64,000 nt of DNA, from NCBI RefSeq assembly GCF_050920415.1, contig NZ_CP169309.1. One strand, written 5' to 3'. Under the pieces are notes generated by a model. The model made no database searches and was not told where the DNA came from. It saw nothing but the letters and a program-made list of their open reading frames with translations. This stretch comes from Escherichia coli (lineage in GTDB: Bacteria > Pseudomonadota > Gammaproteobacteria > Enterobacterales > Enterobacteriaceae). Positions 1,970 through 59,076 of the stretch are shown here, piece by piece. Position numbers and translations under genes: made by a program. How positions within the stretch are numbered: position 1 is the first letter of the stretch; every line of letters begins with the position of its first letter.

Positions 1970-2661
<692 letters not shown>

Positions 2662-2662
<1 letters not shown>

Positions 2663-3513
2663 TGCGGACACAGTGGCCCTCTCCAGCAAAACTTAATCTG
2701 TTTTTATACATTACCGGTCAGCGTTCGGACGGTTACCACACGCTGCAAACGCTGTTTCAGTTTCTTGATTACGGCGACACCATCAGCATTGAGCTTCGTG
2801 ACGATGGGGATATTCGTCTGTTAACCCCCGTTGAAGGCGTGGAACATGAAGATAACCTGATCGTTCGCGCAGCACGGTTGCTGATGAAAACAGCAGCCGC
2901 CAGCGGGCGTCTTCCTACGGGAAGCGGTGCAGAAATCAGTATTGACAAGCGTTTGCCGATGGGCGGCGGTCTAGGTGGTGGTTCATCCAATGCCGCGACG
3001 GTGCTGGTGGCATTAAACCATCTCTGGCAATGCGGGCTAAGCATTGATGAACTGGCGGAAATGGGGCTGACGCTGGGCGCAGATGTTCCTGTCTTTGTTC
3101 GGGGGCATGCCGCGTTTGCCGAAGGCGTTGGTGAAATACTAACGCCGGTGGATCCGCCAGAGAAGTGGTACTTGGTGGCGCACCCTGGTGTAAGTATTCC
3201 GACACCGGTGATTTTTAAAGATCCTGAACTCCCGCGCAATACGCCAAAAAGGTCAATAGAAACGTTGCTAAAATGTGAATTCAGCAATGATTGCGAGGTT
3301 ATCGCAAGAAAACGTTTTCGCGAGGTTGATGCGGTGCTTTCCTGGCTGTTAGAATACGCCCCGTCGCGCCTGACTGGGACAGGGGCCTGTGTCTTTGCTG
3401 AATTTGATACAGAGTCTGAAGCCCGCCAGGTGCTAGAGCAAGCCCCGGAATGGCTCAATGGCTTTGTGGCGAAAGGCGTTAATCTTTCCCCATTGCACAG
3501 AGCCATGCTTTAA
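2662..3513 (+). CDS. ispE: 4-diphosphocytidyl-2-C-methyl-D-erythritol kinase
   Basis: 283-aa ORF with GHMP-kinase glycine-rich motif ([14 protein letters not shown]); start overlaps lolB stop by 1 nt. Confidence 0.93.
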
Positions 3514-3537
3514 GCCGGGCAAGCTGAGTTTCGGTGA

Positions 3538-4611
<1,074 letters not shown>

Positions 4612-19938: not shown

Positions 19939-19952
19939 CTTTACTGTATATC

Positions 19953-19996
19953 GAGCAATGCCATTACGTGCATAAAATTGGCATTGCTCTTTCTTC
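19953..19996 (+). terminator. Possible terminator downstream of treA
   Basis: gagcaatgcc ... ggcattgctc 10-bp stem with a long 17-nt loop, followed by tttcttc. Confidence 0.4.
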
Positions 19997-20267
19997 ATCA
20001 CGAAATACCACTCTTTCTACAGTCTATGCCTTTATTTTCTTTTATTAGGGAAGATTTTAATTTTATTTTATCAACTTATTAATCATTACACCTCTATTTA
20101 TATTTTTCCCCACTCCCCATTCTCCCTGACAATTTTCTTGTGGAACAAAGTGTTATTTAAGAAACAAGCAAATCATTCTGTCTCTTTAGACAAATTTTGA
20201 CATCAAACATGATCTTTTTCGCTATATATGTAAGTATATATCGGTTTTAATTATCAGGATATTACTT

Positions 20268-21290
20268 ATGTCACTAACCAGACGGAGGTTTACACAGATT
20301 CTTGCGTCGACATTGTTCCTGCATCATCTGCCGTCCTTTGCACAATCAGTCAAATTCTGGGCCTCACTGACGCTTCCCGAAGCCCAAAACATTACACGCA
20401 TCGTCAGCGCAGGCGCGCCCGCCGATTTACTATTGCTGGCTGTCGCGCCAGAAAAAATGGTCGGTTTTTCCTCTTTTGATTTTGCCCGTCAGGCATTAAT
20501 TCCATTGCCAGAGCACATTCGCCAGTTCCCCAGGCTGGGACGACTCGCCGGGCGCGCCAGCACACTCTCGCTGGAAGGGCTTATGGCATTACATCCCGAT
20601 TTGGTCGTTGATTGCGGCAATACGGATGAAACCTGGATCTCCCAGGCACGGCAGGTTAGCGAACAGACACAAATACCCTGGTTATTGCTTAACGGGAAAC
20701 TGGAACAATCAGCAGAACAGTTAACAACGCTTGGCAAAACGTTAGGCGAAGAGCACCGCGCCGCAGAACAAGCCAATCTCGCCAGCCGCTTCGTTGGTGA
20801 AGCTAAGGCATTCGCCACCTCACCCGCCGCTAACCTCAGCTTTTATGCTGCGCGCGGTCCTCGAGGGCTGGAAACGGGCTTACAGGGTTCGTTGCATACC
20901 GAGGCGGCGGAATTATTAGGTTTGCACAACGTCGCGCAAATAGCCGATCGCCACGGTCTGACACAGGTTTCCATGGAAAATCTCCTGCGCTGGCAGCCGG
21001 ATATTATTCTGGTTCAGGAGGCCGTTACTGCAGATTTTATTCGTCGTGATCCTCTCTGGCAGGGCGTGAAAGCGGTTGCGGAACAACGCATCTTATTTTT
21101 AAGTGGCCTGCCCTTTGGCTGGCTGGGTGCCCCGCCGGGAATCAACCGTCTTCTGGGATTACGCAGACTTCACGCCTGGCTGGATCCCGCCATCAATCGC
21201 CAGTTTAAAAGTGACATGCAGCATTACGCCCAACTGTTCTGGCATTGCCCATTAAGTGACGCTGACTATCAAAAATTGGTGGCGAGCTAA
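20268..21290 (+). CDS. Periplasmic substrate-binding protein of a metal-chelate ABC importer (FecB/BtuF/TroA-like fold)
   Basis: 340-aa ORF; N-terminus MSLTRRRFTQILASTLFLHHLPSFAQ resembles a signal peptide with a twin-arginine-like motif; first gene of a tightly packed six-gene operon. Confidence 0.7.
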   Translation: MSLTRRRFTQILASTLFLHHLPSFAQSVKFWASLTLPEAQNITRIVSAGAPADLLLLAVAPEKMVGFSSFDFARQALIPLPEHIRQFPRLGRLAGRASTLSLEGLMALHPDLVVDCGNTDETWISQARQVSEQTQIPWLLLNGKLEQSAEQLTTLGKTLGEEHRAAEQANLASRFVGEAKAFATSPAANLSFYAARGPRGLETGLQGSLHTEAAELLGLHNVAQIADRHGLTQVSMENLLRWQPDIILVQEAVTADFIRRDPLWQGVKAVAEQRILFLSGLPFGWLGAPPGINRLLGLRRLHAWLDPAINRQFKSDMQHYAQLFWHCPLSDADYQKLVAS

Positions 21291-22270
21291 TGAGAACCGT
21301 AAACGGATGTATTTTGCTGCTGGCAGCTATCAGTATCACTTTTGCCGCCGTAAGTGGGGCTTATCATCTCGATATACAGCAACTGCTGGCGCTCATTCTG
21401 CGTCAAGAAAATGTTCCTGTGCAGGAACAAATTGTCTTCTGGCAAATCCGCGTGCCGCGTATTCTTGCTGCGCTGTTTCTGGGCGCGGCGCTGGCAGGGG
21501 CCGGAACCACCTATCAGGGAATGTTCCGTAATCCCTTAGTGTCACCGGATATTTTAGGCGTCTCCGCCGGTGCCGGACTTGGTGCCTGCGCGGCAATCCT
21601 GTGGGGATTATCCATTGTTTACATCCAGCTGTACGCATTTTGCGGCGGGCTGATGGTGGTCGCGGGCGTCTGGTTGATTACGCGTCGGGTGACCCGCCAC
21701 GATCCGATCTTAACCCTGGTGCTGGTAGGCATTGCGTTAGGAACGTTGTGCGGAGCGGGGATATCGCTAATAAAAACGCTGGCCGATCCTTACACCCAGT
21801 TACCGTCAATTACCTTCTGGTTGCTGGGGGGGCTGTCCACCGTGACCTTACGCGATCTCTGCTATGCTGCACCGATCATTCTCATAGGCTCCTTGCCCCT
21901 GTTTTTTCTCCGCTGGCGCATGAATTTACTCACGCTTTCCGACGACGAAGCCCATTCGCTGGGACTGAACGTGACACGTCTGCGCTTTGGATTGATTGTC
22001 TGCGCCACACTCATCACCGCCAGCACGGTAGCAATAGCGGGCATAATTGGTTGGGTCGGCCTGGTCGTTCCGCACATTGCCCGCTTGTTGACCGGTCATA
22101 ACCATCAGCAGCTATTGCCCATGGCAATGTGTACTGGCGCGATTCTGCTCCTGCTTACCGATACGCTGGCACGCAGCATTGGAACAACAGAAATCCCACT
22201 TGGCATTCTGACCGCTTTTGTTGGTGCACCGTTTTTCCTGTTTTTGTTGTTACGCGGAGGTCGCCAGTGA
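21290..22270 (+). CDS. FecCD-family ABC permease
   Basis: 326-aa polytopic membrane ORF; start overlaps upstream stop (TAATG). Confidence 0.75.
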   Translation: MRTVNGCILLLAAISITFAAVSGAYHLDIQQLLALILRQENVPVQEQIVFWQIRVPRILAALFLGAALAGAGTTYQGMFRNPLVSPDILGVSAGAGLGACAAILWGLSIVYIQLYAFCGGLMVVAGVWLITRRVTRHDPILTLVLVGIALGTLCGAGISLIKTLADPYTQLPSITFWLLGGLSTVTLRDLCYAAPIILIGSLPLFFLRWRMNLLTLSDDEAHSLGLNVTRLRFGLIVCATLITASTVAIAGIIGWVGLVVPHIARLLTGHNHQQLLPMAMCTGAILLLLTDTLARSIGTTEIPLGILTAFVGAPFFLFLLLRGGRQ

Positions 22271-23025
22271 CTTTGCTTGCCGTCCGTCATGCGTCTCTGG
22301 GTTACTCCCGCCATCCGATGCTACGCGACGTGTCCTTCACCCTGTCGCAAGGAACAATTTGTTGTCTGTTAGGAGCCAATGGTTGCGGCAAAACCACACT
22401 CATGCGCTCCATTCTTGGCGTTATACCGTTATTAAAAGGCGAGATCTTACTGGATAGCCTCCCTGTGCAGACACTCAGCCATCGCCAGCGCGCGCAGGCT
22501 ATTGCCTGGGTGCCGCAGGCGCACGACGGCATTTTTGCTTTTAGTGTGCTGGATATGGTGTTGATGGGCCTGGCCCCCACCATAGGCGCTTTTTCCGTTC
22601 CCGGTAAGCAAGAACGCCTGAAAGCAACGGAGCAACTGGAAAAGCTGGGCATTTTGCATCTGGCGACACGACGCTGGAATACACTTAGCGGCGGTGAACG
22701 TCAGCTGGCTTTAATCGCCCGTGCACTCGTCCAGCAACCGCGCTTGTTATTACTGGATGAGCCTGCCTCCAGCCTCGATTTCGGTCATCAGATCCAACTA
22801 CTGGACACGCTGGCGCAGCTCAAAAATAACGGCATGACAATGCTAATGTCGACTCATCATCCGCTCCATGCCAACGCCATTGCCGACAGCATTATCCAGG
22901 TAGAGCCAGATGGACGAGTAACACAAGGCTTACCGACCGAACAGTTAACAACGAACAAACTGGCTGCCCTGTATCGGGTTTCTGCCGACCAGATTCATCA
23001 TCACCTCTCTGCAATTAGCCACTAA
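22267..23025 (+). CDS. ABC transporter ATP-binding protein
   Basis: Walker A GANGCGKTT, signature LSGGERQ, Walker B LLLLDEPASSLD; start placed at the GTG at 22267 overlapping the permease stop (GTGA), giving about 252 aa; the track ORF from 22129 would overlap the permease by about 140 nt. Confidence 0.75.
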   Translation: MTLLAVRHASLGYSRHPMLRDVSFTLSQGTICCLLGANGCGKTTLMRSILGVIPLLKGEILLDSLPVQTLSHRQRAQAIAWVPQAHDGIFAFSVLDMVLMGLAPTIGAFSVPGKQERLKATEQLEKLGILHLATRRWNTLSGGERQLALIARALVQQPRLLLLDEPASSLDFGHQIQLLDTLAQLKNNGMTMLMSTHHPLHANAIADSIIQVEPDGRVTQGLPTEQLTTNKLAALYRVSADQIHHHLSAISH

Positions 23026-23034
23026 GGAACAATC

Positions 23035-48292: not shown

Positions 48293-49105
48293 ATGGCACG
48301 CATTATTGTTGTTACTTCGGGCAAAGGGGGTGTTGGTAAGACAACCTCCAGCGCGGCCATCGCCACTGGTTTGGCCCAGAAGGGAAAGAAAACTGTCGTG
48401 ATAGATTTTGATATCGGCCTGCGTAATCTCGACCTGATTATGGGTTGTGAACGCCGGGTCGTTTACGATTTCGTCAACGTCATTCAGGGCGATGCAACGC
48501 TAAATCAGGCGTTAATTAAAGATAAGCGTACTGAAAATCTCTATATTCTTCCGGCATCGCAAACACGCGATAAAGATGCCCTTACCCGTGAAGGGGTCGC
48601 CAAAGTTCTTGATGATCTGAAAGCGATGGACTTTGAATTTATCGTTTGTGACTCCCCGGCAGGGATTGAAACCGGTGCGTTAATGGCACTCTATTTTGCA
48701 GACGAAGCCATTATTACCACCAACCCGGAAGTCTCCTCAGTACGCGACTCTGACCGTATTTTAGGCATTCTGGCGTCGAAATCACGCCGCGCAGAAAATG
48801 GCGAAGAGCCTATTAAAGAGCATCTGCTGTTAACGCGCTATAACCCAGGCCGCGTGAGCAGAGGTGACATGTTGAGCATGGAAGATGTGCTGGAGATCCT
48901 GCGCATCAAACTCGTCGGCGTGATTCCTGAGGATCAATCAGTATTGCGCGCCTCTAACCAGGGTGAACCGGTCATTCTCGACATTAACGCCGATGCGGGT
49001 AAAGCCTACGCAGATACCGTAGAACGTCTGTTGGGAGAAGAACGTCCTTTCCGCTTCATTGAAGAAGAGAAGAAAGGCTTCCTCAAACGCTTGTTCGGAG
49101 GATAA
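48293..49105 (+). CDS. minD: Septum site-determining ATPase MinD
   Basis: 270-aa ORF with deviant Walker A GKGGVGKTT. Confidence 0.95.
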   Translation: MARIIVVTSGKGGVGKTTSSAAIATGLAQKGKKTVVIDFDIGLRNLDLIMGCERRVVYDFVNVIQGDATLNQALIKDKRTENLYILPASQTRDKDALTREGVAKVLDDLKAMDFEFIVCDSPAGIETGALMALYFADEAIITTNPEVSSVRDSDRILGILASKSRRAENGEEPIKEHLLLTRYNPGRVSRGDMLSMEDVLEILRIKLVGVIPEDQSVLRASNQGEPVILDINADAGKAYADTVERLLGEERPFRFIEEEKKGFLKRLFGG

Positions 49106-49108
49106 GTT

Positions 49109-49375
49109 ATGGCATTACTCGATTTCTTTCTCTCGCGGAAGAAAAACACGGCCAACATTGCAAAAGAACGGCTGCAGATTATTGTTGCTGAACGCCGTCG
49201 CAGCGATGCTGAACCGCATTATCTACCGCAGTTGCGTAAAGATATTCTTGAGGTCATTTGTAAATACGTACAAATTGATCCTGAGATGGTAACCGTACAG
49301 CTTGAGCAAAAAGATGGCGATATTTCTATTCTTGAGCTGAACGTGACTTTACCGGAAGCTGAAGAGCTGAAATAA
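49109..49375 (+). CDS. minE: Cell division topological specificity factor MinE
   Basis: 88-aa ORF ([31 protein letters not shown]...). Confidence 0.95.
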
Positions 49376-49401
49376 GCCCGCTGTAAAAGCGCATTTATCT
49401 T

Positions 49402-49433
49402 CAAGGCAGAGTCATCTCTGCCTTGAGTTTTTC
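49402..49433 (+). terminator. Intrinsic terminator downstream of minE
   Basis: caaggcagag-tcat-ctctgccttg stem-loop followed by agTTTTTc. Confidence 0.75.
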
Positions 49434-49746
49434 ATTCCTCTCATCCACGTTTAGTAAGCGCGGCGAGCATTCTTGCTGATGCGACGCATTGCTATTTCTC
49501 CCTCCCCCTTTACACCTTAATGCTGTTCCCATATACAGAACAAAATGTTTATGCCTGGTTGAGTAGATAACCTTATTGTTAGCATGGGTATACTGGGCGA
49601 TGATAACCCCGCAATTTCATTATTCATTGTTCTCCCATAGGATGAGGTTTCCCGCCGTAACTGGCGGGCTTTTTTTGCCTCAGCATTTTCCCTTGTAACA
49701 CCCTGTAAATGAAAACTGCGCCGAAGCGCAGTTTAATTACTGATTG

Positions 49747-52700
49747 TCAGAACGACCAGTTCACACCAGCCACCGCGTTCCACGGGGATTCCACACTGGC
49801 ACCATGGCTATACCCCACCCCGAGATGCCCGCTTAACGAACTGCTGAATGAGGCTTTAATACCTGCCTGGTATATTCCACGTCTGCCCGACAAATCATTG
49901 ACAAAATTACCGTCATTATTCACTTTCACCCGGTTATCATCGACAAATTCTTTGCGCACAGCCGCCTTCAGCCACGGCTCTACTTCCATGCCGTTCCCCA
50001 GACGCATGTTGTAACTCAGCGTTGCGCCCAGTTCACGATATATACTGCGGGTATCGACTGATTTCGATTCCATACCATTGGATAAATGATATTCGGGGTT
50101 GTCAGCGGTTAACCCCGTTAACGATGCATACGGCGTCAGGTTCCAGTTACCATCGGTAAATCGCATCCCGGTTTCAATGTGACCGCCCAGCCCGTTGCTG
50201 CGATAACTGCCGTTGGCGGCTCCACCGCTGCTCATTTTACCGGCTACGTTACTTTCAAAGCGGTTCAGCTTCACGATACCGTCCAGATAGAAACCACTTT
50301 CATGTTCCCAGCTGACATAGCCCCCCAGAGAATAACTGCCCACACTGCCATGTCCTCCACGATCAAAACCGATATGTGAATGGGAATAACCCATAAAAGC
50401 GCCCAGCGTCGCAATCCCCTCAGGAATATCATTACGGCTATCGATCCCCACCGTCATTCCGGTCAGCGTCTGCTCAAACCCGGCACCCGCATCGGTGGTG
50501 ACATTATTACGGGTGTTATACGTCGTCCCCCAGACATTATTGTTGTGTGGACTCGCTTTCATTATGTTCAACCGCTCGCGAATACTGTTTAGCTCAGCAT
50601 CAAAGACCAACGGTAATGTTGCTGCCATATTGAGTACGGCTGCCGTAGAAGGCGTGATGCGTTTCTCCGGGACGGGTGTCGGCGTTGGATCGGGAGTCGG
50701 GTCTGGTTTCGGATCCGGTTTTGGGTCTGGTTTTGGATCCGGTTTCGGATTTGGGTTGGGGTCCGGGTTGGGTTTGACATCATTGGTCAGGTTCCAGTTG
50801 CTGTTGCCGTCGCTTTTCAGGACATACTCATAGGTCCCAAGATCAACGAAACCGCCGGTATTACCCAGCGTAAACGAAGCATCCCCTCCCCCTGTTTTCA
50901 CCAGCGTCATCGCGTCGTCAGACTGAGGGCTGACGCCGGTATCCTGAACAAAGATTTTAAAATTGCCAGTGGCGTTGTTGTTGACGACCAGTTGATCGCC
51001 CCGGGAGCCTGCAACGTTGGTATGCAGGTAGAAATTACCGCTGCCGGAAAGTTCACTGGTGGTCAGCGTATTGTAGATACCGTTAGTTGTGGCAGGCGCT
51101 GCTGTTTGTGCTGATAAATAAACATCACCGTCGTTGAGGAGCAAACTGTTTACTCTATATTCGCAGTTGCTGGTGCCTGCACAGGAATTATTGCTGTTAA
51201 GCCAGACACTGCCCCGGCTGGCAGCCGTCAGGTCGGCAAGCGTCGTATCGACGCCATTTCCGATAGTTAATGTCGCGCTATCGGTAATCCGGACCACCCC
51301 TTCAAGTTTAACTGGCGTAACATTATCCCGTGGCGTCATTAACGACAGGCTTCCTGTCGCGCCACTGACCGATGCATCCGCCAGCGTACCTGCGTAGACG
51401 ATTGCCGTCCCGCCAGCGACCTGTAGATCTTCTGCCCGGGCCAGAGCCTGAAACTCATCTTTTGACCGACCAAGGGTATATTGCCCACCGGAATTAACCT
51501 TTGTGGCGAAGTCCTGACCCAGGTTTTGCATTGCCCCACCGTTGCCAACCGTGGAATCGCGAGCTTCGGTACCTGCTAATACCAATAAATTACCGCCATT
51601 TTCCAGCAGCACATTGGTCGCTAAATTTCCGGCAATGGAAAAGGTGCCGTACTGGTGAGTACCGCTGATTTCAATACCGTTAGCCGTGCTCGTCTGGAGA
51701 GCGGCACCGCTGTTCTGGATGATATCTGTCGCTTTGCCATTATCGTTGACTGTCAGCGTACCGCCTTCATTAATCGTTGTTTTTACTGCCTCACCGTTAG
51801 CCGAAACTGTTTGTATTCCGCCGTCGTTAATCGTTGTCTCAGTCGCCACACCCTCGACGATTTGTTCACCGCCGGTAAGCATCGTGCCAGTCGCAGTGGC
51901 TTTTGTTTTGACGATCTCCCGTCCGCCCGCATTGACCTGTGTTTTGGCGGAAGTGGTGTCTGACTCCACGGTTAACACGCCGCCATTTGCCAGCAGGATA
52001 TTGTTCGCCGCATCCTGCTCGATGCTGAACGCGACGCCATCAGCGCGTGTCCCTGTGACCCGCGTCGCCCTGGTGGTTGCCACCAACGCGCCCTGGCTAC
52101 TCTGCTGTATCCCCGTAGCGCTGCCTTTCTCCCGCACATCGAGTGTGCCGCCGTCATTAAGTACCGAGTTTTCAGCCAGACCGCCCTCATTAACTACCTG
52201 TGAACCGCCATTAATAATGGAACCTTCCGTTGTCCCGTTTGCCATAATTTGTTGTAGGCCAGAGACGATATCGGTATTGATCGCCTTACCATAATTCTGA
52301 ACGGTTTGCGTGCCGCCTTTGATGTGCGTTTTATCTGTTGACCCACCATCAACAATTTGTTCACCACTTTCGATATTTGCCTCAGTGGCTAAACCATATA
52401 CCGTTTGCTTGCCACCTTTGATATTTGCTTTATCAGAAGTGGCACTGGCATATATTGTTTGGGTGCCCGCACTATTGAGTACAGTGCCAACATCTTTTCC
52501 ATAAACATCCATTTTGCCGTTGGCATTAATAATCGTATCAACTGCCCGGGAACCAGTAACGACTGTTAATGAGCCAGCGTTTTCCAGCACTACATTTTTA
52601 GCTTCTGAATTCCTGATGTAGAAAGCATCACCATAACTGTTGGTTCCTTCGATAAGTGTTCCGGAAGTCGTGGAAGCAATTAATGCGCCGCCGGATTGTT

Positions 52701-54429
52701 GCTCAACATGCTTAGCCTCACCACCGTCCTGAACCTCCAGAACGCCACCATTATTAAGTCTGGTGGTATCTGTTTTAGCCTCCTTCTGGACAATCAGCTT
52801 ACCGCCAGCATCAACGGTAGTATTTTTCGCCGTGGTTTTAGCCACTACCGTCAGTTCGCCGGTATTTTCCAGCACAACATAATTAGCCTCCCCTCCGGTA
52901 ATAGTGAAGTGAGAGAGCTTGTTGTATCCTTCAATATCAGTCCCTGCGCCCGTGTTGGCAACTAAAGCACTGCCCGTCTCCTGGTTAACCCCATGTGCGA
53001 TACCACCGGTATAGACAATCAGCGAGCCTCCGGCGCTAATATTGCTGCCAGTTGCCGTACCATCTTTCTCAACAACCTGCCGGCTCCCGGAGGAGATATT
53101 TGTCGTGTCAGCTTTCCCGCCGCTCTTGATATTTTGTGTTCCGCTGTTGATATTGGTTCCCGTGGCAATACCATGATTATTAATATTCTGTGTGCCACCA
53201 TTAATTATGGTATTTGTCGCGTTTCCGGCAACATCCATAACCCCGCCATTATCTATTCGGGTCGCATCAGCTTTAGCATTCGTTAAAACTGACATTGTTC
53301 CTTTATCTTTAATAACCGTCTTGTTTGCCGAACCATATGCGTTTATGTCTAAATGGCCACCGTTTTCCAGCAACACATTGTCTGCCACGTGATTGTGGAT
53401 GGAGAATGCCCCTTCACTATTCGTACCGCTCACCGTCGACCTGTCAGTCATTGCTTTTAAAGCCGCGCCATCGTGCTGGGTAACATTCGTTGCCGTACCC
53501 TCTCTAACATCAAGCACGCCACCGGAATATATTTCAATAACATTCGAGGTGCTCCTGCTATCAACAATTTGCGTCCCACCAGAATAGATCGTGGTAGTGT
53601 GCGCCGTTGACGTGTTTTGCAGCGTCTGCATTCCTCCATTTTTAATGGTGGTTATTTGTGCAGTGCTTGAATCAACATCCTGTCGACCACCATCTATTGT
53701 GGTGTCCAGCGCATGGCTCTTAATTGTTCTTTGGTCACCTCCATTTTTAATGATAGTGTTTTCTACAATACTCGAATCTACATACTGTCGGCCCCCATCT
53801 ATTGTTGTGTTCGTTGCCAGACTTCCTTGTGTGATGTTCTGAGAACCAGATGTATTTATCGTCGTACCGTCAACATGCCCCTGAGCTGTTACTGTTTGTT
53901 TACCACCATCAATGACAGTCCCGTTTGCTCTCCCTCCTTCGACGTATGAATTACCATTCTTAATTATCGTGCCATTGCTGGTACCATCCTTATAAATGTA
54001 CTGATTGCCACTCTCGATTAACGTGCCATTGCTGGTACCACCGTTATAAACTTGCTGATTGCCACTCGCGATTATCGTACCGCTAGAATTCCCACCATTA
54101 TAAATTACCTGTGTACCCCCATGAAGGATTGTATTATTAGCTTGCCCCTGATAATTGTTATGGTTTGCTACATCTTGTTGTCCACCCATTTCAATAATAC
54201 TTCCATTAGACACCCCACCAAATACAGTCTGGTGGCCGTGATTAATGATATGAGTATCATTAGTTGTCCCCCGTTCATCTACTATTTGCTCGCCATCCAC
54301 AGTTTCACCATTTACGATACCAGTAACGATTGATGTGAAAGCAGCCTCTCCAGGCTGGGCATATATCAAGGCAGATATCAATAAGGAAAGTACTGAACGG
54401 CGAAAATAATAGCGACTGGTCCTGTTCAT
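49747..54429 (-). CDS. Large AIDA-type autotransporter adhesin, apparently intact (corresponds to the locus I recall as an autotransporter pseudogene in K-12)
   Basis: ORF 49747..54558; start placed at the ATG at 54429 (MNRTSRYYFRRSVLSLLISALIYA, RBS agga 9 nt upstream; alternative ATG at 54438), giving about 1560 aa; long Gly/Thr/Asn-rich repetitive passenger, Pro-rich linker (PNPDPNPNPKPDPKPDPKPDP...), C-terminal beta-barrel ending ...GVNWSF. Confidence 0.8.
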   Translation of the reverse strand: MNRTSRYYFRRSVLSLLISALIYAQPGEAAFTSIVTGIVNGETVDGEQIVDERGTTNDTHIINHGHQTVFGGVSNGSIIEMGGQQDVANHNNYQGQANNTILHGGTQVIYNGGNSSGTIIASGNQQVYNGGTSNGTLIESGNQYIYKDGTSNGTIIKNGNSYVEGGRANGTVIDGGKQTVTAQGHVDGTTINTSGSQNITQGSLATNTTIDGGRQYVDSSIVENTIIKNGGDQRTIKSHALDTTIDGGRQDVDSSTAQITTIKNGGMQTLQNTSTAHTTTIYSGGTQIVDSRSTSNVIEIYSGGVLDVREGTATNVTQHDGAALKAMTDRSTVSGTNSEGAFSIHNHVADNVLLENGGHLDINAYGSANKTVIKDKGTMSVLTNAKADATRIDNGGVMDVAGNATNTIINGGTQNINNHGIATGTNINSGTQNIKSGGKADTTNISSGSRQVVEKDGTATGSNISAGGSLIVYTGGIAHGVNQETGSALVANTGAGTDIEGYNKLSHFTITGGEANYVVLENTGELTVVAKTTAKNTTVDAGGKLIVQKEAKTDTTRLNNGGVLEVQDGGEAKHVEQQSGGALIASTTSGTLIEGTNSYGDAFYIRNSEAKNVVLENAGSLTVVTGSRAVDTIINANGKMDVYGKDVGTVLNSAGTQTIYASATSDKANIKGGKQTVYGLATEANIESGEQIVDGGSTDKTHIKGGTQTVQNYGKAINTDIVSGLQQIMANGTTEGSIINGGSQVVNEGGLAENSVLNDGGTLDVREKGSATGIQQSSQGALVATTRATRVTGTRADGVAFSIEQDAANNILLANGGVLTVESDTTSAKTQVNAGGREIVKTKATATGTMLTGGEQIVEGVATETTINDGGIQTVSANGEAVKTTINEGGTLTVNDNGKATDIIQNSGAALQTSTANGIEISGTHQYGTFSIAGNLATNVLLENGGNLLVLAGTEARDSTVGNGGAMQNLGQDFATKVNSGGQYTLGRSKDEFQALARAEDLQVAGGTAIVYAGTLADASVSGATGSLSLMTPRDNVTPVKLEGVVRITDSATLTIGNGVDTTLADLTAASRGSVWLNSNNSCAGTSNCEYRVNSLLLNDGDVYLSAQTAAPATTNGIYNTLTTSELSGSGNFYLHTNVAGSRGDQLVVNNNATGNFKIFVQDTGVSPQSDDAMTLVKTGGGDASFTLGNTGGFVDLGTYEYVLKSDGNSNWNLTNDVKPNPDPNPNPKPDPKPDPKPDPKPDPTPDPTPTPVPEKRITPSTAAVLNMAATLPLVFDAELNSIRERLNIMKASPHNNNVWGTTYNTRNNVTTDAGAGFEQTLTGMTVGIDSRNDIPEGIATLGAFMGYSHSHIGFDRGGHGSVGSYSLGGYVSWEHESGFYLDGIVKLNRFESNVAGKMSSGGAANGSYRSNGLGGHIETGMRFTDGNWNLTPYASLTGLTADNPEYHLSNGMESKSVDTRSIYRELGATLSYNMRLGNGMEVEPWLKAAVRKEFVDDNRVKVNNDGNFVNDLSGRRGIYQAGIKASFSSSLSGHLGVGYSHGASVESPWNAVAGVNWSF

Positions 54430-55032
54430 AAATTTCATCCTCTGAAAAGTGAATACTGAGTAGCGGGTAAGCGACCTTAGCTCTGCTGCAACATCGGCCC
54501 ACAGGCACCAGACCAGGGGATTCATCCTTAAGAGACAGCGCAAGTGTATTGTGTTCACCGCTCATCAAAGACATCATGATGAAATGATGATATTCCGCAT
54601 AAGAAAGAGGCATTTTTAGACGCATCGCGCTGAAGTGTGGTTGAATAAAAATCAATCTTTTCAGATAAGACTGTCGTACTCTTATTTTGCGGAAATAAGG
54701 CCGTCGGCAAAGTAAAATGACTCACATAATTGTTTCTGATGAATATCTTCTACTCACATGAATATTACACAATAATATTGATGCATCAGATTATCTTACC
54801 TTTACAACATCACGTTAACAGCCAATGACACTTCTTGAATAAAAATATTGTCAATCAAAGAGTTATTTTTTATTTAAGATTATTCTCATTCAAGTAAAAG
54901 ACATAATTCCTATCATCACAGCCACGCTCATTTTGAATTATCTGAATAATAGCGAGCGTTCTTTAGTTAAGCAGGTCTTAATTGAAGACGAAATTATTGT
55001 GTGTGCAACTTACTTAATACCGGACATCTAAG

Positions 55033-55377
55033 TTGAAGAAAAAAATACTCGCCTTCGGGCTTATCTCAGCATTGCTCTGCTCCGCGCCAGCGATGGCGGA
55101 TATGAATCGCACCACAAAAGGTGCACTACTTGGTGCAGGCGTTGGTTTACTTACTGGCAATGGCGTTAATGGCGTACTGAAAGGTGCAGCTGTTGGCGCT
55201 GGCGTTGGTGCAGTAACAGAAAAAGGCCGCGACGGCAAAAATGCGCGCAAAGGTGCAAAAGTGGGTGCCGCCGTTGGTGCTGTCACTGGCGTTCTGACCG
55301 GCAATGGCCTTGAAGGGGCGATTAAAGGTGCCGTAATTGGCGGTACGGGTGGTGCAATTCTGGGTAAAATGAAATAA
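55033..55377 (+). CDS. ymgG: Glycine-zipper small protein YmgG
   Basis: 114-aa ORF with signal peptide and repeated GxxxG/GAxVG motifs; apparent TTG start. Confidence 0.8.
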
Positions 55378-55386
55378 GGAATGATG

Positions 55387-55716
55387 ATGAAAAAATTTGC
55401 TTTACTGGCGGGTCTGTTTGTTTTCGCACCAATGACCTGGGCGCAGGACTACAATATTAAGAACGGTTTGCCGTCAGAAACCTATATTACTTGCGCAGAA
55501 GCCAACGAAATGGCAAAAACTGACAGCGCACAGGTTGCAGAAATTGTTGCGGTAATGGGTAATGCCAGCGTTGCCAGCCGTGATTTAAAAATTGAGCAAT
55601 CTCCGGAACTGAGCGCCAAAGTGGTAGAAAAACTGAACCAGGTTTGCGCTAAAGACCCGCAAATGCTGTTGATCACGGCAATTGATGACACCATGCGTGC
55701 TATCGGCAAAAAATAA
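55387..55716 (+). CDS. ymgD: Periplasmic protein YmgD
   Basis: ORF 55381..55716; start at MKKFALLAGLFVFAPMTWA (signal peptide), giving about 109 aa. Confidence 0.85.
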   Translation: MKKFALLAGLFVFAPMTWAQDYNIKNGLPSETYITCAEANEMAKTDSAQVAEIVAVMGNASVASRDLKIEQSPELSAKVVEKLNQVCAKDPQMLLITAIDDTMRAIGKK

Positions 55717-55891
55717 TATTTCGTCTGTTACCGCGTCGATTGATTCGACGCGGTGGTTGTATATAGTTCTACAATGAAACATCACACCCGCCAATACGCC
55801 CTCACAACAACAAGCAAAGCAATTTAATCGGCATTAAACCACAAGTACAACAATACTTATTACTATATAGCGGCTATAGCATAAAGAAAGA

Positions 55892-56110
55892 TTAGTGCTG
55901 ATCCCTGTGGCTAACGAGTTTTTCCCTTACTCGATTAACCAGATTGATCGCCAGCCAAACAAGGGCATTCAGCAAATTTATCGTCACAAGCACTTCTCCA
56001 AGCCCAGTACTGGGTTTTGCGATAAGGATGACCAGCAAGGTGATCAGCATAAATGCAATGGAAAAGATGATATAGAGAGTGAAATAATCCAGATTATTAC
56101 TATTGTTCAT
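55892..56110 (-). CDS. ymgF: Small inner-membrane protein YmgF
   Basis: ORF 55892..56146; start at MNNSNNLDYFTLYIIF..., giving 72 aa with two hydrophobic helices. Confidence 0.75.
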   Translation of the reverse strand: MNNSNNLDYFTLYIIFSIAFMLITLLVILIAKPSTGLGEVLVTINLLNALVWLAINLVNRVREKLVSHRDQH

Positions 56111-56241
56111 GCTACTAATGGCAATCCTGTCAAAACTTTCAAACAATTATAGCAAACAAAATAATGAACAATAGTAACAAGACGCAACGAGCTAATTAGC
56201 TGTCTATAATTACACCGCACCATGGTCTTAATGATCAATTT

Positions 56242-57765
56242 TTACTCAATCATAACCTTCACCTTCGGTTTAGAAAGGATAATTTTAACCAGGTCGATGT
56301 AGGTTACCGGTTTATAGAAATAATAACCCTGCTGAAATGTGATGTTGTTTTGATTCAGATAATCAAGCTGTTCTTTTGTTTCGACACCTTCAGCGACGAT
56401 ACTGATCGAAAGTTTACGCGCCAGATCCAGTACACAATCCAGAATCCTGGTTGATTCTGGGTCTGCATTGACACGACCAACAAAACTGTGATCAATTTTA
56501 ATATAATCAATATGCAGATCATGCAGATAAGAAAGCCCTGAATAGCCAGTACCAAAATCATCCAGTGCGATGACAAAACCATTTTCATGCAGAATGTTCA
56601 ACCGCTGAACCAGACTTTCATCAACATCTAATGATTCACGCTCGGTCACTTCCAGAACGAGGTTTAAATCGCGGCGGGTAAAACTGTCACGGAAAATTAA
56701 GCACTCGTCGACAAACGTCGGCGAAATAATATGCGAGGCACTAAAATTAATTCCGATATGAAAACCTTCCGGCAATTTACTCGCGATAGTGTTCATCTGT
56801 GTGACAACCTGATTCATCAGACTTTGTGTAAGCGGAACAATTAATCCAGATTTTTCAGCAAGTGGAATAAATGCCGCGGGTGAGATATATTTGCCGTGAG
56901 GTTGTTTCCAGCGGGCTAATACCTCAACTCCCCGCAATGACCCTTCCCGACCATTTACCACAGGTTGGTAAAAAGGGACAATCTCACCATTACTTATGGC
57001 CCGTCGCAGGACCTCTTCAGGCGTTGCGCTTTTATTAAAATACTTATCAAGCAGGTAGGCTGCGGCGCAGGCAATTAACAGAATGAATATCAAAACCCCT
57101 ACGCCATTATCGATAAGTCTGTAGAAGCTAAAGAATGGTGGTGGGTTAAAGATAATAGTGAAATGATATCTTGTGGAGTGAACCTTCTCAGTATAAGGAT
57201 AGTGTCCATTAAGCGTCATCACGTCACCGGTAGGTCCAATAATGTCATCCGCTACGCGTAATGCATACCTTACCCCTTTCAAGGGCACATTAAGCGCTCC
57301 ACGAATATGCTGATCACTTATCGTGACCAAAATACGCGTGTCTGCAAATTGGCTCTGATAGAGCAGGATAGGCAATCTATTGACGGTGTCGATTGCCGGA
57401 GCCAACAGTAAATTACTGTCAGGGAAAGCAGGAATACGAGACAGCAGGACTCGATTCCCCGGCAAGGATGTACACCAGACCATTCCGCGTTTGAGAATGA
57501 TGATTGTGCGCAAGTGAGGTTTCAGAGCTGCTTCAGTGCCAAGCTGATATTGCTCCTCGAGGTCGCATTCCTTCCCGGCAATGTTAACCGCCGCTTGAGT
57601 CGCCTGTGACGCTTCTTCAAGTATGTGATTGATATTGTTGACAGCATATCTCGCTCCCGCCGTATATGCTGCTTTTGCGGAATACCAAAGCTGGATATTC
57701 AAAATAGCGACACCGGTTATAAACAAGCATATCGCAACGAGGATGGGTATGAGTGTATTGCGCAT
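56242..57765 (-). CDS. pdeG: c-di-GMP phosphodiesterase PdeG (YcgG; CSS-motif sensor domain plus EAL domain)
   Basis: 507-aa ORF with N-terminal TM and periplasmic domain, C-terminal EAL domain (EVLARW..., DDFGTGYS). Confidence 0.88.
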   Translation of the reverse strand: MRNTLIPILVAICLFITGVAILNIQLWYSAKAAYTAGARYAVNNINHILEEASQATQAAVNIAGKECDLEEQYQLGTEAALKPHLRTIIILKRGMVWCTSLPGNRVLLSRIPAFPDSNLLLAPAIDTVNRLPILLYQSQFADTRILVTISDQHIRGALNVPLKGVRYALRVADDIIGPTGDVMTLNGHYPYTEKVHSTRYHFTIIFNPPPFFSFYRLIDNGVGVLIFILLIACAAAYLLDKYFNKSATPEEVLRRAISNGEIVPFYQPVVNGREGSLRGVEVLARWKQPHGKYISPAAFIPLAEKSGLIVPLTQSLMNQVVTQMNTIASKLPEGFHIGINFSASHIISPTFVDECLIFRDSFTRRDLNLVLEVTERESLDVDESLVQRLNILHENGFVIALDDFGTGYSGLSYLHDLHIDYIKIDHSFVGRVNADPESTRILDCVLDLARKLSISIVAEGVETKEQLDYLNQNNITFQQGYYFYKPVTYIDLVKIILSKPKVKVMIE

Positions 57766-58097
57766 TCGCTTGTCCCGGACTAAGGATTTTAATACATAAA
57801 ATGATGTTCATTCGCTCGTGCTGGCGTCTAAAGAGAGCATGGTAGAGAGCATAAGAAATATCCACGCCGAAGATAAAATTTTCTCCATCGTCATCTAACC
57901 TATTAATTATTGTGCTTAATGTGGGTAAAATTAAGCAAATCTGGCAGGATGTCAGACGTCAAGAATGGAGAACAATAGTTCTCCATTCTTGTTTAAACCC
58001 TGATATTCCGGATATATTAAGAAACATAACGACTTAAATTATTACTTTGCAACAGAATATGATACAGCTGATGGTAATTTTAAAACCTTACTCAGTT

Positions 58098-58346
58098 CTA
58101 AGAGAGCTCGGCTTCCCTGTCATTAATAATGACATCCGTTAGTGTTGTCTTATGCAATTCAATGTACTGCAAAATTTGCAGGTAGAGATCAGAAAGAATC
58201 ACACTCGTTTCATCTTTTAAACGCAAGCGTAAAGCCTGATCAATAATATGACTATTAACATACCCATGCGCCATGAACACCTCCCTCTCGAGATTTTTAA
58301 ATAAAGCACATTGAAAAATAAATCTCTCGGGAATTGAATTATTCAT
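58098..58346 (-). CDS. ymgC: Small protein YmgC
   Basis: 82-aa ORF, last gene of the ycgZ-ymgA-ariR-ymgC cluster. Confidence 0.85.
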   Translation of the reverse strand: MNNSIPERFIFQCALFKNLEREVFMAHGYVNSHIIDQALRLRLKDETSVILSDLYLQILQYIELHKTTLTDVIINDREAELS

Positions 58347-58466
58347 GTCAGCCTCGTAAAAATATCAATCCAATAGAATTATGCTGTGTATAGTCTAAGC
58401 GACAGACAAAAATAAGATGAATGAGTTTTCTATAAACTTATGCTAGTTATACTAAACAATAAAAAG

Positions 58467-58733
58467 TCACATATCATCAGCTGTGTATCGCAACACGATT
58501 TCCAGTGTTTTTCTAATCACATCAGCTTTGAGAATATCATTCGTTGTTTCCAGGGAGTGTATCAGACTTAAGATAATATTTTTATTATTAACATTATCTC
58601 CTGAAAGCATTAAATTGGTCACCGCCTGCCCTAATACAGCAGACTCTTCTTCTAACAAATTCCCCGAACTGCGAAAGTAACTTGATAACGCCTTATCAGT
58701 TATTGCGTTATGAATAGTAGTATCTTCAAGCAT
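58467..58733 (-). CDS. ariR: Acid-resistance/biofilm regulator AriR (YmgB)
   Basis: 88-aa ORF ([41 protein letters not shown]...). Confidence 0.9.
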
Positions 58734-58761
58734 GGTAACCTCTCATCTTACTTATGAAATT

Positions 58762-59034
58762 TTAATGTATTCTGTTTATTTTCTTACCATTGAATATACT
58801 TTTATTGTCAGCTATTGCTGCTCTTCTGTTAGGCCCTCCTGTATCACAGTTGCTAAAATCACGAATTATGCTATCAATTAAATCTCGTCGGAAGGCATTT
58901 TGTTCAACAGATTTCATTACGAGTAATTGCTTAATAAGAGTCTGCAACGAAAAATTTATCTTCATGCGTAATATCTGGAGCACCGCCTGGCCAGTAATTT
59001 CATGTTTTATACTTTCATTATCAGATGTCTTCAT
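58762..59034 (-). CDS. ymgA: Rcs-connector small protein YmgA
   Basis: 90-aa ORF matching YmgA as remembered. Confidence 0.88.
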   Translation of the reverse strand: MKTSDNESIKHEITGQAVLQILRMKINFSLQTLIKQLLVMKSVEQNAFRRDLIDSIIRDFSNCDTGGPNRRAAIADNKSIFNGKKINRIH

Positions 59035-59076
59035 AACGACTTCATAGTTAATCTGTCAAATAATCAGGCTGTCACA

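What the first reader, a model, noticed from the sequence alone, without database searches (positions are those of the whole stretch)
49747..54429. Intact ~1560-aa autotransporter where K-12 is recalled to carry a pseudogene
One uninterrupted reading frame runs from a signal peptide through a highly repetitive passenger (many copies of motifs such as TIINGGTQ, DGG.Q.V) to a beta-barrel. If my recollection of the K-12 locus is right, this strain retains a functional adhesin that K-12 has lost. An AT-rich 470-bp region upstream (54559-55032) may be an H-NS-silenced promoter.
Basis: partly seen in the sequence, partly recalled or inferred. Interest (0 to 1): 0.45.

Follow-up and report, generated by a model that had tools for sequence, protein, structure and literature searches.

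The report
Intact YpjA-like autotransporter beside minE
This is an intact 1560-residue surface adhesin gene of a well-known type, kept full-length only in a rare deep branch of E. coli; K-12 retains just its last 345 bases but carries a close sister copy elsewhere, so the finding is correct but ordinary.

Summary
Window 49747-54429 (- strand) is one uninterrupted 1560-codon ORF. It has a Sec-type signal peptide, an AIDA-repeat beta-helix passenger, a pertactin-type junction, a Pro-rich linker and a C-terminal autotransporter barrel.

K-12 MG1655 has a clean 4,367-bp deletion at this site (window 50092-54458). Only the last 345 bp survive, annotated as pseudogene ycgI.

Three qualifications apply:
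- The gene is a paralogue of ypjA/ehaD (89% aa identity to K-12 YpjA). K-12 still carries ypjA intact elsewhere, so it lost a copy, not the family.
- Only the N-terminal ~300 residues are distinctive (about 70-76% nt identity to ypjA alleles). The remainder is nearly identical to the ypjA of the same lineage, which points to gene conversion.
- The full-length allele occurs in 18 of 5,426 complete E. coli genomes. These form one deep lineage, and two of them are published as cryptic clade I. 4,533 genomes share the K-12 deletion. Others carry an in-frame 1124-aa allele or an IS truncation (O157:H7).

E. albertii has an autotransporter at the same position, so the locus is ancestral.

Adhesin function and H-NS silencing remain untested. 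This is a new member of a known kind and of low interest.

The parts
49747..54429 (-). Complete CDS of a 1560-aa classical (type Va) AIDA-I-type autotransporter. It is the full-length form of K-12 pseudogene ycgI and a paralogue of ypjA/ehaD.
   Evidence: ORF and translation; identical RefSeq CDS WP_332832721.1 'AIDA repeat-containing protein'; Pfam and NCBIfam hits.
54343..54429 (-). Signal peptide, about aa 1-29 (cleavage after GEA inferred by eye).
   Evidence: Sequence and hydropathy; no signal-peptide predictor was available.
53440..54339 (-). Locus-specific N-terminal 'head' of the passenger (aa ~31-330). It consists of AIDA-I/Ag43-like 19-residue rungs and is strongly diverged from every ypjA allele.
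   Evidence: About 76% nt identity to K-12 ypjA. Only 18 genomes match at >=99% and ypjA alleles at ~70%. dS 0.55-0.61 and dN 0.18-0.20 against ypjA. AlphaFold model pLDDT 95.3, all-beta, with best fold matches Ag43 and TibA.
51160..53439 (-). Remainder of the beta-helix passenger (aa ~331-1090), with five ~130-190-aa modules each containing a strong AIDA domain.
   Evidence: Pfam AIDA hits with E-values from 1e-19 to 1e-24; module anchors; dS 0.013 against the ypjA of the same lineage.
50785..51153 (-). Pertactin-type junction or autochaperone domain (aa 1093-1215).
   Evidence: Pfam PF03212, E = 2.4e-45; PDB sequence matches to pertactin 1DAB.
50608..50781 (-). Pro-rich (PNPxPKPDP) linker encoded by a 12/24-nt tandem repeat; its length varies between alleles.
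   Evidence: Tandem Repeats Finder array at 50685-50773; linker sequence; expanded (NP)n in the AST240 allele.
49750..50535 (-). C-terminal autotransporter beta-barrel (aa ~1299-1560), ending in NWSF.
   Evidence: Pfam PF03797, E = 5.8e-46; TIGR01414 at 324 bits against a cut-off of 16; BrkA and Vag8 barrel matches.
49747..50091 (-). The only part of the gene that survives in K-12 (ycgI, b4521, K-12 1223564-1223907).
   Evidence: blastn of the window against NC_000913; K-12 annotation.
50092..54458 (.). The 4,367-bp segment deleted in K-12 and in 4,533 of 5,426 complete genomes. It removes the Shine-Dalgarno sequence, the ATG and 1446 codons, with 1 bp of junction microhomology.
49741..54810 (.). 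Extent of paralogy with the ypjA locus (K-12 2778140-2783110): the gene, 381 bp upstream and 6 bp downstream.
   Evidence: blastn; three-way identity profile.
54430..54878 (.). AT-rich (37% GC) divergent intergenic region between the autotransporter gene and the ymgI-ymgG-ymgD genes. It is the presumed promoter and leader; H-NS binding is plausible but untested.
   Evidence: Composition. One sigma-70-like match at 54818-54790 (-), with a total count equal to the shuffle mean. K-12's ymgJ ORF is not conserved here.
49715..49730 (-). Probable intrinsic terminator of the autotransporter gene (CTGCGC-TTCG-GCGCAG followed by TTTTCATTT). It lies outside the segment shared with ypjA.
   Evidence: Read from the sequence; the consensus scan did not list it.

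Best explanation
The ORF encodes a classical (type Va) AIDA-I/Ag43-type autotransporter. It is the full-length ancestral form of the gene whose last 345 bp persist in K-12 as pseudogene ycgI, and it is the sister copy of ypjA/ehaD.

Inferred mechanism, from established knowledge of the family:
- The signal peptide takes the protein through Sec.
- The C-terminal 12-stranded barrel is inserted into the outer membrane.
- The passenger is threaded out and folds from the pertactin-type junction into a long right-handed beta-helix that stays on the surface.
- There it promotes adhesion, cell-cell aggregation and biofilm, as reported for YpjA/EhaD when over-expressed.

Shown here:
- The ORF is intact and has the full domain architecture.
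- K-12 and 83.5% of complete E. coli genomes share one illegitimate 4.37-kb deletion.
- The full-length allele is confined to 18 genomes of one deep lineage, identified through two of its members as cryptic clade I. Those checked also carry ypjA.
- From residue ~331 onward the two paralogues of that lineage are almost identical (gene conversion), while the first ~300 passenger residues are strongly diverged.
- E. albertii has an autotransporter at the same position.

Inferred only: expression, surface display, adhesive function, and which of the two loci was the source of the duplication.
For: - Intact ORF and architecture.
- Sequence homology to solved Ag43, TibA, AidA-I-family, BrkA/Vag8 and pertactin structures.
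- Confident beta-helix model of the head (pLDDT 95.3) with Ag43 and TibA as top fold matches.
- K-12 deletion and ycgI.
- Paralogy with ypjA.
- Population states.
- The same 18 genomes are the nearest relatives in a core flank (97.8-100% identity; all others <=97.5%). Two of them, EC42405 and 2013C-4282, are named clade I in PMC10100065.
- ypjA is also present and intact in clade I strains.
- The orthologue is intact (1558 aa) in 3 further clade I genomes.
- dN/dS is 0.32-0.43 (15 synonymous to 15 nonsynonymous changes, p = 0.002 against neutrality).
- Gene-conversion signature: dS 0.013 against the same-lineage ypjA, compared with 0.11 against K-12 ypjA, and identical tracts in strain 100117.
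- E. albertii locus.
- YpjA/EhaD biofilm and adhesion literature: PMC9289746, PMC3796261, PMC4076661.
Against: - There is no expression, localisation or adhesion data for this protein.
- One clade I strain (EC42405) carries a real 43-bp frameshifting deletion. The gene was lost or truncated independently at least twice elsewhere (K-12-type deletion, IS truncation in O157:H7). So it is dispensable.
- Because most of the gene is being homogenised with ypjA, the purifying-selection signal may partly reflect selection on ypjA. The head alone shows only 4 variable sites among the four intact alleles compared (2 synonymous, 2 nonsynonymous).
- The E. albertii gene runs into a contig end with stop codons in its first 6 codons, so its intactness is unknown.
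- The window is 100% identical to an assembly whose ypjA copy shows homopolymer and GATC-type changes typical of nanopore error, so single-base accuracy of the window is not guaranteed. Independent assemblies do agree on the intact ORF.
Confidence: 0.85

Rival explanations
1. The ORF is intact but is a cryptic, decaying gene. It would be silent and on its way to loss, as has already happened in most of the species, and its open frame would be maintained only passively by gene conversion from ypjA.
For: - The gene was lost or truncated independently at least twice elsewhere in the species, and one clade I strain is frameshifted.
- Residues 331 to the end are near-identical to the same-lineage ypjA.
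- The upstream region is AT-rich, which is compatible with silencing.
- From my own knowledge of Roux et al. 2005, which is not held in the library, K-12 ypjA shows a phenotype only when expressed artificially.
Against: - The divergent head, which conversion cannot repair, is open and nearly invariant in the four intact alleles I compared. The head matches at >=99% identity in all 18 genomes, though that alone does not establish an open frame in the 13 not inspected.
- Overall dN/dS is 0.32-0.43, significantly below 1.
Confidence: 0.25
2. The full-length gene is not an ancestral retention. It would be a secondary repair of a K-12-type deletion, copied from ypjA through the ~350-bp homologies that flank the deletion on each side.
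For: - Both edges of the K-12 deletion lie inside sequence shared with the ypjA locus.
- The C-terminal four fifths of the gene matches the same-lineage ypjA almost exactly.
Against: - The first ~900 nt of the passenger match no ypjA allele in 5,426 genomes better than ~70-73%; six unexamined records match at 80-90%.
- This head lies inside the deleted segment, so a ypjA template could not have supplied it.
- E. albertii has a gene at this position.
- All 18 genomes of the lineage carry the full-length gene.
Confidence: 0.05
3. The open frame is an assembly artefact: a chimera of two ~95% identical paralogues collapsed or mis-joined in a long-read assembly.
For: - The matching assembly shows error-like changes in its ypjA copy.
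- Several of its prophage genes are annotated as frameshifted.
Against: - The same gene, with the same flanks and head, occurs in 18 independent assemblies from different laboratories and platforms.
- It is intact at 1558 aa in three of these that I inspected.
Confidence: 0.02

Closest known systems
YpjA / EhaD (E. coli K-12 b2647; EHEC EhaD), an AIDA-I-type autotransporter
   Same: - 89% aa identity over the full length.
- The same domain order.
- 95-99% nt identity over most of the region from residue ~331 to the end.
- A shared 381-bp upstream region.
- PGAP names the shorter alleles at this same minE locus 'ypjA: adhesin-like autotransporter YpjA/EhaD'.
   Different: - A different chromosomal locus: minE-ymgG rather than ileY-ssrA.
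- The first ~300 passenger residues are strongly diverged (dN ~0.19, dS ~0.6; ~70% nt identity to ypjA alleles).
- PGAP does not give the window-type protein the YpjA/EhaD name, only 'AIDA repeat-containing protein'.
- The two genes coexist in clade I genomes.
ycgI (b4521), K-12 pseudogene
   Same: It is the orthologous locus. ycgI aligns with the last 345 bp of this gene at 94-97% identity, with the same flanks on both sides.
   Different: ycgI lacks the promoter-proximal leader, the start codon and 1446 codons because of a 4,367-bp deletion.
Antigen 43, TibA and AIDA-I (self-associating autotransporters)
   Same: - 19-residue beta-helix rungs (TIGR04415 and Pfam AIDA).
- A pertactin-type junction and the same barrel family.
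- Best sequence and fold matches among solved structures.
   Different: - Only 25-30% identity in the head.
- Scores are far below the NCBIfam equivalog cut-offs (333 and 277 bits against 1200).
- The protein is much longer (1560 aa).
- No adjacent heptosyltransferase gene, unlike aah-aidA and tibC-tibA.
- Self-association is untested.
ycgH (b4491), the other autotransporter pseudogene of this K-12 neighbourhood
   Same: It is also an autotransporter, and it lies within 2 kb of ymgD/ymgG. It is the gene a reader is most likely to recall as 'the K-12 pseudogene here'.
   Different: - It is an unrelated sequence: no blastn match to the window gene at 1e-10.
- It lies between ymgF and ymgD.
- It is absent from the window (55754-55886).
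- It is intact in strains such as AST240 and M114.

Membership tests
Classical (type Va) autotransporter | N-terminal Sec signal peptide | tested here: met
   A basic n-region, a hydrophobic core and a GEA|AF motif, judged by inspection and hydropathy. No dedicated predictor was run.
Classical (type Va) autotransporter | C-terminal autotransporter beta-barrel domain with a terminal aromatic residue | tested here: met
   PF03797, E = 5.8e-46; TIGR01414 at 324 bits against a cut-off of 16; the protein ends in NWSF.
Classical (type Va) autotransporter | Passenger and barrel in a single polypeptide, with a junction or autochaperone region | tested here: met
   A single ORF, with a Pertactin domain at aa 1093-1215 immediately before the linker and barrel.
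Classical (type Va) autotransporter | Passenger is actually translocated to the cell surface | not testable with these tools
   This needs fractionation, protease shaving or immunofluorescence.
AIDA-I-type / self-associating autotransporters (Ag43, AIDA-I, TibA) | Beta-helix passenger built of ~19-residue AIDA repeats | tested here: met
   At least 13 Pfam AIDA hits; TIGR04415 at 225.6 bits against a cut-off of 30; 18-19-residue periodicity; AlphaFold model and Foldseek matches to Ag43 and TibA.
AIDA-I-type / self-associating autotransporters (Ag43, AIDA-I, TibA) | Equivalog-level similarity to Ag43 or AIDA-I | tested here: not met
   NF033177 scores 333 bits and NF033176 scores 277 bits; both cut-offs are 1200.
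AIDA-I-type / self-associating autotransporters (Ag43, AIDA-I, TibA) | Self-association that causes aggregation | not testable with these tools
   This needs a settling or aggregation assay.
AIDA-I-type / self-associating autotransporters (Ag43, AIDA-I, TibA) | Cognate heptosyltransferase gene next to the adhesin gene (as in aah-aidA and tibC-tibA) | tested here: not met
   The neighbours are minE on one side and ymgI/ymgG/ymgD on the other, with no glycosyltransferase. The rest of the genome was not searched.
YpjA/EhaD | High full-length identity to K-12 YpjA | tested here: met
   89% aa identity over 1560/1526 residues.
YpjA/EhaD | Orthologous position (ileY-ssrA region, next to CP4-57) | tested here: not met
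   The window gene lies between minE and ymgG. The same lineage has a separate ypjA at the ileY-ssrA locus.
YpjA/EhaD | Given the YpjA/EhaD name by NCBI's annotation rules | tested here: not met
   RefSeq calls the window-type protein 'AIDA repeat-containing protein', although the 1124-aa alleles at this locus do receive the ypjA name.
YpjA/EhaD | Promotes adhesion or biofilm when expressed | not testable with these tools
   There is literature only for YpjA/EhaD itself (PMC9289746, PMC3796261, PMC4076661).

The most novel reading that the evidence does not exclude
In cryptic clade I the minE-locus gene and ypjA would form a two-copy adhesin system. Gene conversion keeps stalk, junction, linker and barrel identical, while each copy keeps its own ~300-residue head, giving two binding specificities on one secretion scaffold.

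The minE-locus gene, not ypjA, would be the progenitor. ypjA/ehaD of K-12 and EHEC would then be a duplicate that outlived its parent in most of the species.
Probability: 0.4. Interest if true: 0.35.

Novelty: new member of a known kind. Interest (0 to 1): 0.2.

Why it matters
The finding gives the K-12 pseudogene ycgI a concrete full-length counterpart and a history:
- one ancient illegitimate deletion shared by about five sixths of sequenced E. coli;
- an independent truncation in O157:H7;
- an in-frame shortened allele in other lineages.

It also shows that the known adhesin YpjA/EhaD has a sister gene with a different head. That sister gene is a near-diagnostic trait of cryptic clade I, a lineage recently flagged as a source of STEC- and ETEC-type pathogens (PMC10100065). 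This is useful for adhesin-typing schemes, which at present would score either copy as 'ypjA'.

It does not change how autotransporters are understood. Variable presence and decay of such genes in E. coli is well established.

Tried and rejected
- **Large protein collection, head as query.** The search returned only short fragments. One cluster matched at 98% identity over 54% of the query and the rest at <=71%. No full-length proteins were returned, so it gave no useful picture of distribution.
- **Exact look-up of the protein.** The protein is not in that collection.
- **GTDB species scan with the C-terminal 461 aa.** It returned only E. albertii and one contaminated MAG contig. Other Escherichia species could therefore not be assessed. 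The exact-peptide seeding probably missed diverged copies.
- **Rfam scan of 49000-56500.** Nothing relevant; there was one sub-threshold CrcZ hit, which is chance.
- **Promoter scan.** 9 sites found against 9.0 expected, so there is no support for a specific promoter.
- **Literature.** 'ycgI' plus autotransporter gave one irrelevant review. ypjA plus H-NS and ymgI/ymgJ plus H-NS gave nothing on regulation. Roux et al. 2005 is not held. The 2025 'Eaa' adhesin (PMC12399667) is a different 733-aa protein at a tRNA-Thr island.
- **Reciprocal paralogue loss, rejected.** I considered that the window strain had lost ypjA while keeping this gene, the mirror image of K-12. The two 1-nt deletions in its ypjA lie in G-runs and sit beside GATC-to-GATT-type changes, which are typical long-read errors. 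ypjA is intact in related strains.
- **Repair of a deletion from ypjA.** Considered and rejected; see the rival explanations.
Full report
**1. The observation**

The - strand carries one ORF from 54558 (first GTG) to the stop at 49747. The ATG at 54429, preceded by GAGGA, gives 1560 codons without a stop. This is exactly the CDS that RefSeq annotates in NZ_CP169399.1 (E. coli MFDS1022581, 100% identical over 5.5 kb) as WP_332832721.1, 'AIDA repeat-containing protein'.

The architecture is as follows:
- The N-terminus is a typical Sec signal.
- Pfam finds at least 13 AIDA repeats over aa 65-982.
- A Pertactin domain lies at aa 1093-1215, followed by a Pro-rich linker.
- The Autotransporter beta-domain lies at aa 1299-1538.
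- NCBIfam gives the autotransporter barrel (324 bits, cut-off 16) and the 19-residue strand-loop-strand repeat (225.6 bits, cut-off 30). Ag43 and AIDA-I equivalogs score far below their cut-offs.
- The passenger shows an 18-19-residue periodicity and five larger modules, and the protein ends in NWSF.
- At the DNA level the repeats are only 60-80% alike. The one true tandem array encodes the linker.

**2. The K-12 comparison**

In MG1655, window 47000-50091 and 54459-55754 align on either side of one junction at K-12 position 1223564 (96.3% and 94.5% identity). K-12 therefore lacks window 50092-54458, a span of 4,367 bp. The junction has 1 bp of microhomology. The deletion removes the ribosome-binding site, the start codon and 1446 codons. 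What remains, the last 345 bp, is annotated pseudogene ycgI, b4521.

K-12's other autotransporter pseudogene nearby, ycgH (b4491, between ymgF and ymgD), is an unrelated sequence and is simply absent from the window (55754-55886).

**3. What the gene is**

Nearly every other E. coli genome matches the query best not at this locus but at ypjA ('adhesin-like autotransporter YpjA/EhaD'). Against K-12 ypjA (b2647, beside the CP4-57 prophage) the homology runs from 6 bp past the stop to 381 bp upstream of the ATG (window 49741-54810). Identity is 89% at the protein level over the full length.

The identity is uneven:
- about 76% nt over the first ~900 nt of the passenger;
- 95-99% over most of the rest.

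A search with that first part finds 18 genomes at >=99% identity, six at 80-90%, and all ypjA alleles at ~70-73%. The gene is thus a paralogue of ypjA with its own N-terminal head.

An AlphaFold model of aa 31-420 is confident (pLDDT 95.3) and all-beta. Its best structural matches are the Ag43 passengers (7KOB, 7KOH, 4KH3) and TibA (4Q1Q), at 25-30% identity. Sequence search of the PDB gives the same relatives, plus the BrkA/Vag8 barrels and pertactin.

**4. Population context (5,426 complete E. coli genomes)**

- **K-12-type deletion.** A 301-bp probe across the K-12 junction is contiguous in 4,533 genomes of diverse types, including BL21, B1 STEC and O4:H5. The deletion is therefore old and shared.
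- **Gene extending past the junction.** A probe joining the minE-side flank to sequence beyond the junction is contiguous in 712 genomes. These fall into three states.
- **Full-length window type.** 18 genomes.
- **In-frame shortened allele.** This allele is 1124 aa long (for example AST240 and M114; WP_125069696.1) and PGAP names it ypjA. I estimate roughly 350-450 genomes from evenly spaced result rows; this was not counted.
- **O157:H7-type truncation.** IS1203 cuts the gene and leaves a 753-bp barrel remnant.

**5. Which lineage**

In a core flank 10-15 kb away (nhaB-dadX) the 18 nearest genomes, at 97.8-100% identity, are exactly the same 18. Every other genome is at <=97.5%. The whole window is only ~96-97% identical to K-12.

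Two of the 18, EC42405 and 2013C-4282, are listed as complete-genome representatives of Escherichia cryptic clade I in PMC10100065. The window therefore comes from that lineage, and the full-length gene is a clade trait.

The orthologue is intact (1558 aa) in 2013C-4282, 100117 and WL297. In EC42405 it is frameshifted by a 43-bp deletion. Pairwise dN/dS among the intact orthologues is 0.32-0.43. For the window against 2013C-4282 there are 15 synonymous and 15 nonsynonymous changes, p = 0.002 against neutrality.

**6. The two paralogues together**

Clade I genomes also carry ypjA at the usual ileY-ssrA position. It is intact in 100117 (1557 aa) and 2013C-4282 (1522 aa).

In MFDS1022581 the ypjA copy has two 1-nt deletions in G-runs, next to GATC-to-GATT-type changes. 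I take these to be long-read errors rather than real decay.

Comparing the window gene with ypjA:

| Region | Versus same-lineage ypjA | Versus K-12 ypjA |
|---|---|---|
| aa 31-330 | dS 0.61, dN 0.18 | dS 0.55, dN 0.20 |
| aa 331-1090 | dS 0.013 | dS 0.11 |
| aa 1091-1290 | no differences | – |

In strain 100117 the two copies are identical over gene nt 2500-3660. This is the signature of gene conversion that homogenises stalk, junction, linker and barrel while the heads stay distinct.

Alleles are also exchanged between lineages. AST240's ypjA is ~1% from the clade I alleles but 4-5% from both K-12 ypjA and AST240's own minE-locus allele.

**7. Ancestry**

E. albertii NBRC 107761 has an autotransporter gene convergent with minE at the same position, with 79% nt identity over window 47439-51898 and 70% aa identity. 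Its contig ends inside the gene. No second E. albertii locus was returned.

Together with the near-universal presence of the remnant in E. coli, this makes the minE locus ancestral and the K-12 state derived. The idea that ypjA arose by duplication from this locus is an inference.

**8. Upstream region and regulation**

54559-55032 is 33% GC. Its distal 153 bp is a conserved ymgI-like ORF on the + strand, leading into ymgG-ymgD. The real divergent intergenic region is 54430-54878 (37% GC).

K-12's small ORF ymgJ, which lies in the corresponding leader, is broken by a stop and a frameshift here. Sigma-70-like matches are no more frequent than in shuffles. Rfam finds nothing, and I found no literature on H-NS at ypjA, ycgI or ymgIJ. 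H-NS silencing remains a reasonable but untested idea.

A hairpin followed by a T-run at 49715-49730 (- strand) is a likely terminator.

**9. Function**

YpjA/EhaD is reported to promote adhesion and biofilm formation and is grouped with the self-associating autotransporters (PMC9289746, PMC3796261, PMC4076661). By homology the window protein most likely does the same, possibly with a different specificity conferred by its head. None of this is shown for this protein.

The passenger carries the repeat type that Aah/TibC heptosyltransferases modify, but no such gene is adjacent.

**10. Verdict**

The gene is nonetheless an annotated member of a well-characterised family, K-12 retains a close paralogue, and presence/absence and decay of autotransporter genes across E. 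coli is well known.

The modest new points are these:
- The gene is the full-length counterpart of ycgI.
- The full-length allele is restricted to cryptic clade I.
- The pattern relative to ypjA is a conserved scaffold with a divergent head.

Novelty: new member of a known kind. Interest: 0.2.

Noticed in passing
window 19939-26671: A 6.7-kb segment absent from K-12, where it replaces the ycgY region. It encodes a FecCD/BtuC-type permease, an ABC ATPase, a methyltransferase-like protein, ModD (502 bits) and a 663-aa TonB-dependent receptor, which together look like a metal or siderophore-type uptake cluster.
   Followed up: partly
window 31448-33426 (ORF 32090-33499, +): A 2-kb segment absent from K-12, which has only an IS1414 fragment there. 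It encodes a 469-aa protein with leucine-rich-repeat similarity to the T3SS effectors SlrP and SspH2 (78 bits, far below the cut-offs), and no ligase domain was detected.
   Followed up: partly
window 9664-12531 (+): A second autotransporter in the window: an intact 955-aa ORF at the position of K-12 ycgV.
   Followed up: no
window 55754-55886; L001 5602-8249; L006 3173-5836: K-12's autotransporter pseudogene ycgH sits in a ~3-kb segment between ymgF and ymgD. That segment is absent from the window but holds an intact 887-aa ycgH in strains AST240 and M114.
   Followed up: partly
window 55886-62630: The pdeG-ymgC-ariR-ymgA-ycgZ-bluF-bluR side is only 91.7% identical to K-12, against 96-97% for the rest of the window. 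Beyond 62630 identity falls to 74-82%.
   Followed up: no
L011 33765-38436 (NZ_CP169399.1 1173764-1178435): The ypjA copy of the assembly identical to the window is annotated as frameshifted. The two 1-nt deletions lie in G5/G6 runs beside GATC-to-GATT-type substitutions, and several prophage genes in the same record are also annotated as frameshifted. This suggests residual long-read errors in that assembly.
   Followed up: yes
window 54574-54757 (-): The K-12 small protein gene ymgJ lies in the leader of the ancestral autotransporter gene. In the window its frame is broken by a stop and a frameshift, whereas ymgI (54879-55031, +) is conserved at 91% aa identity.
   Followed up: partly
E. coli genome search: Six records match the N-terminal head at 80-90% identity. 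They are neither window type nor ordinary ypjA, so they may represent a further head allele. They were not examined.
   Followed up: no
L015 (JAIJJM010000485.1): A 2.5-kb contig of a 'Collinsella sp.' MAG encodes 116 residues that are 100% identical to part of this E. coli autotransporter's C-terminal region (residues 1-116 of the 461-aa query, about aa 1100-1215 of the protein). This is almost certainly binning contamination.
   Followed up: no
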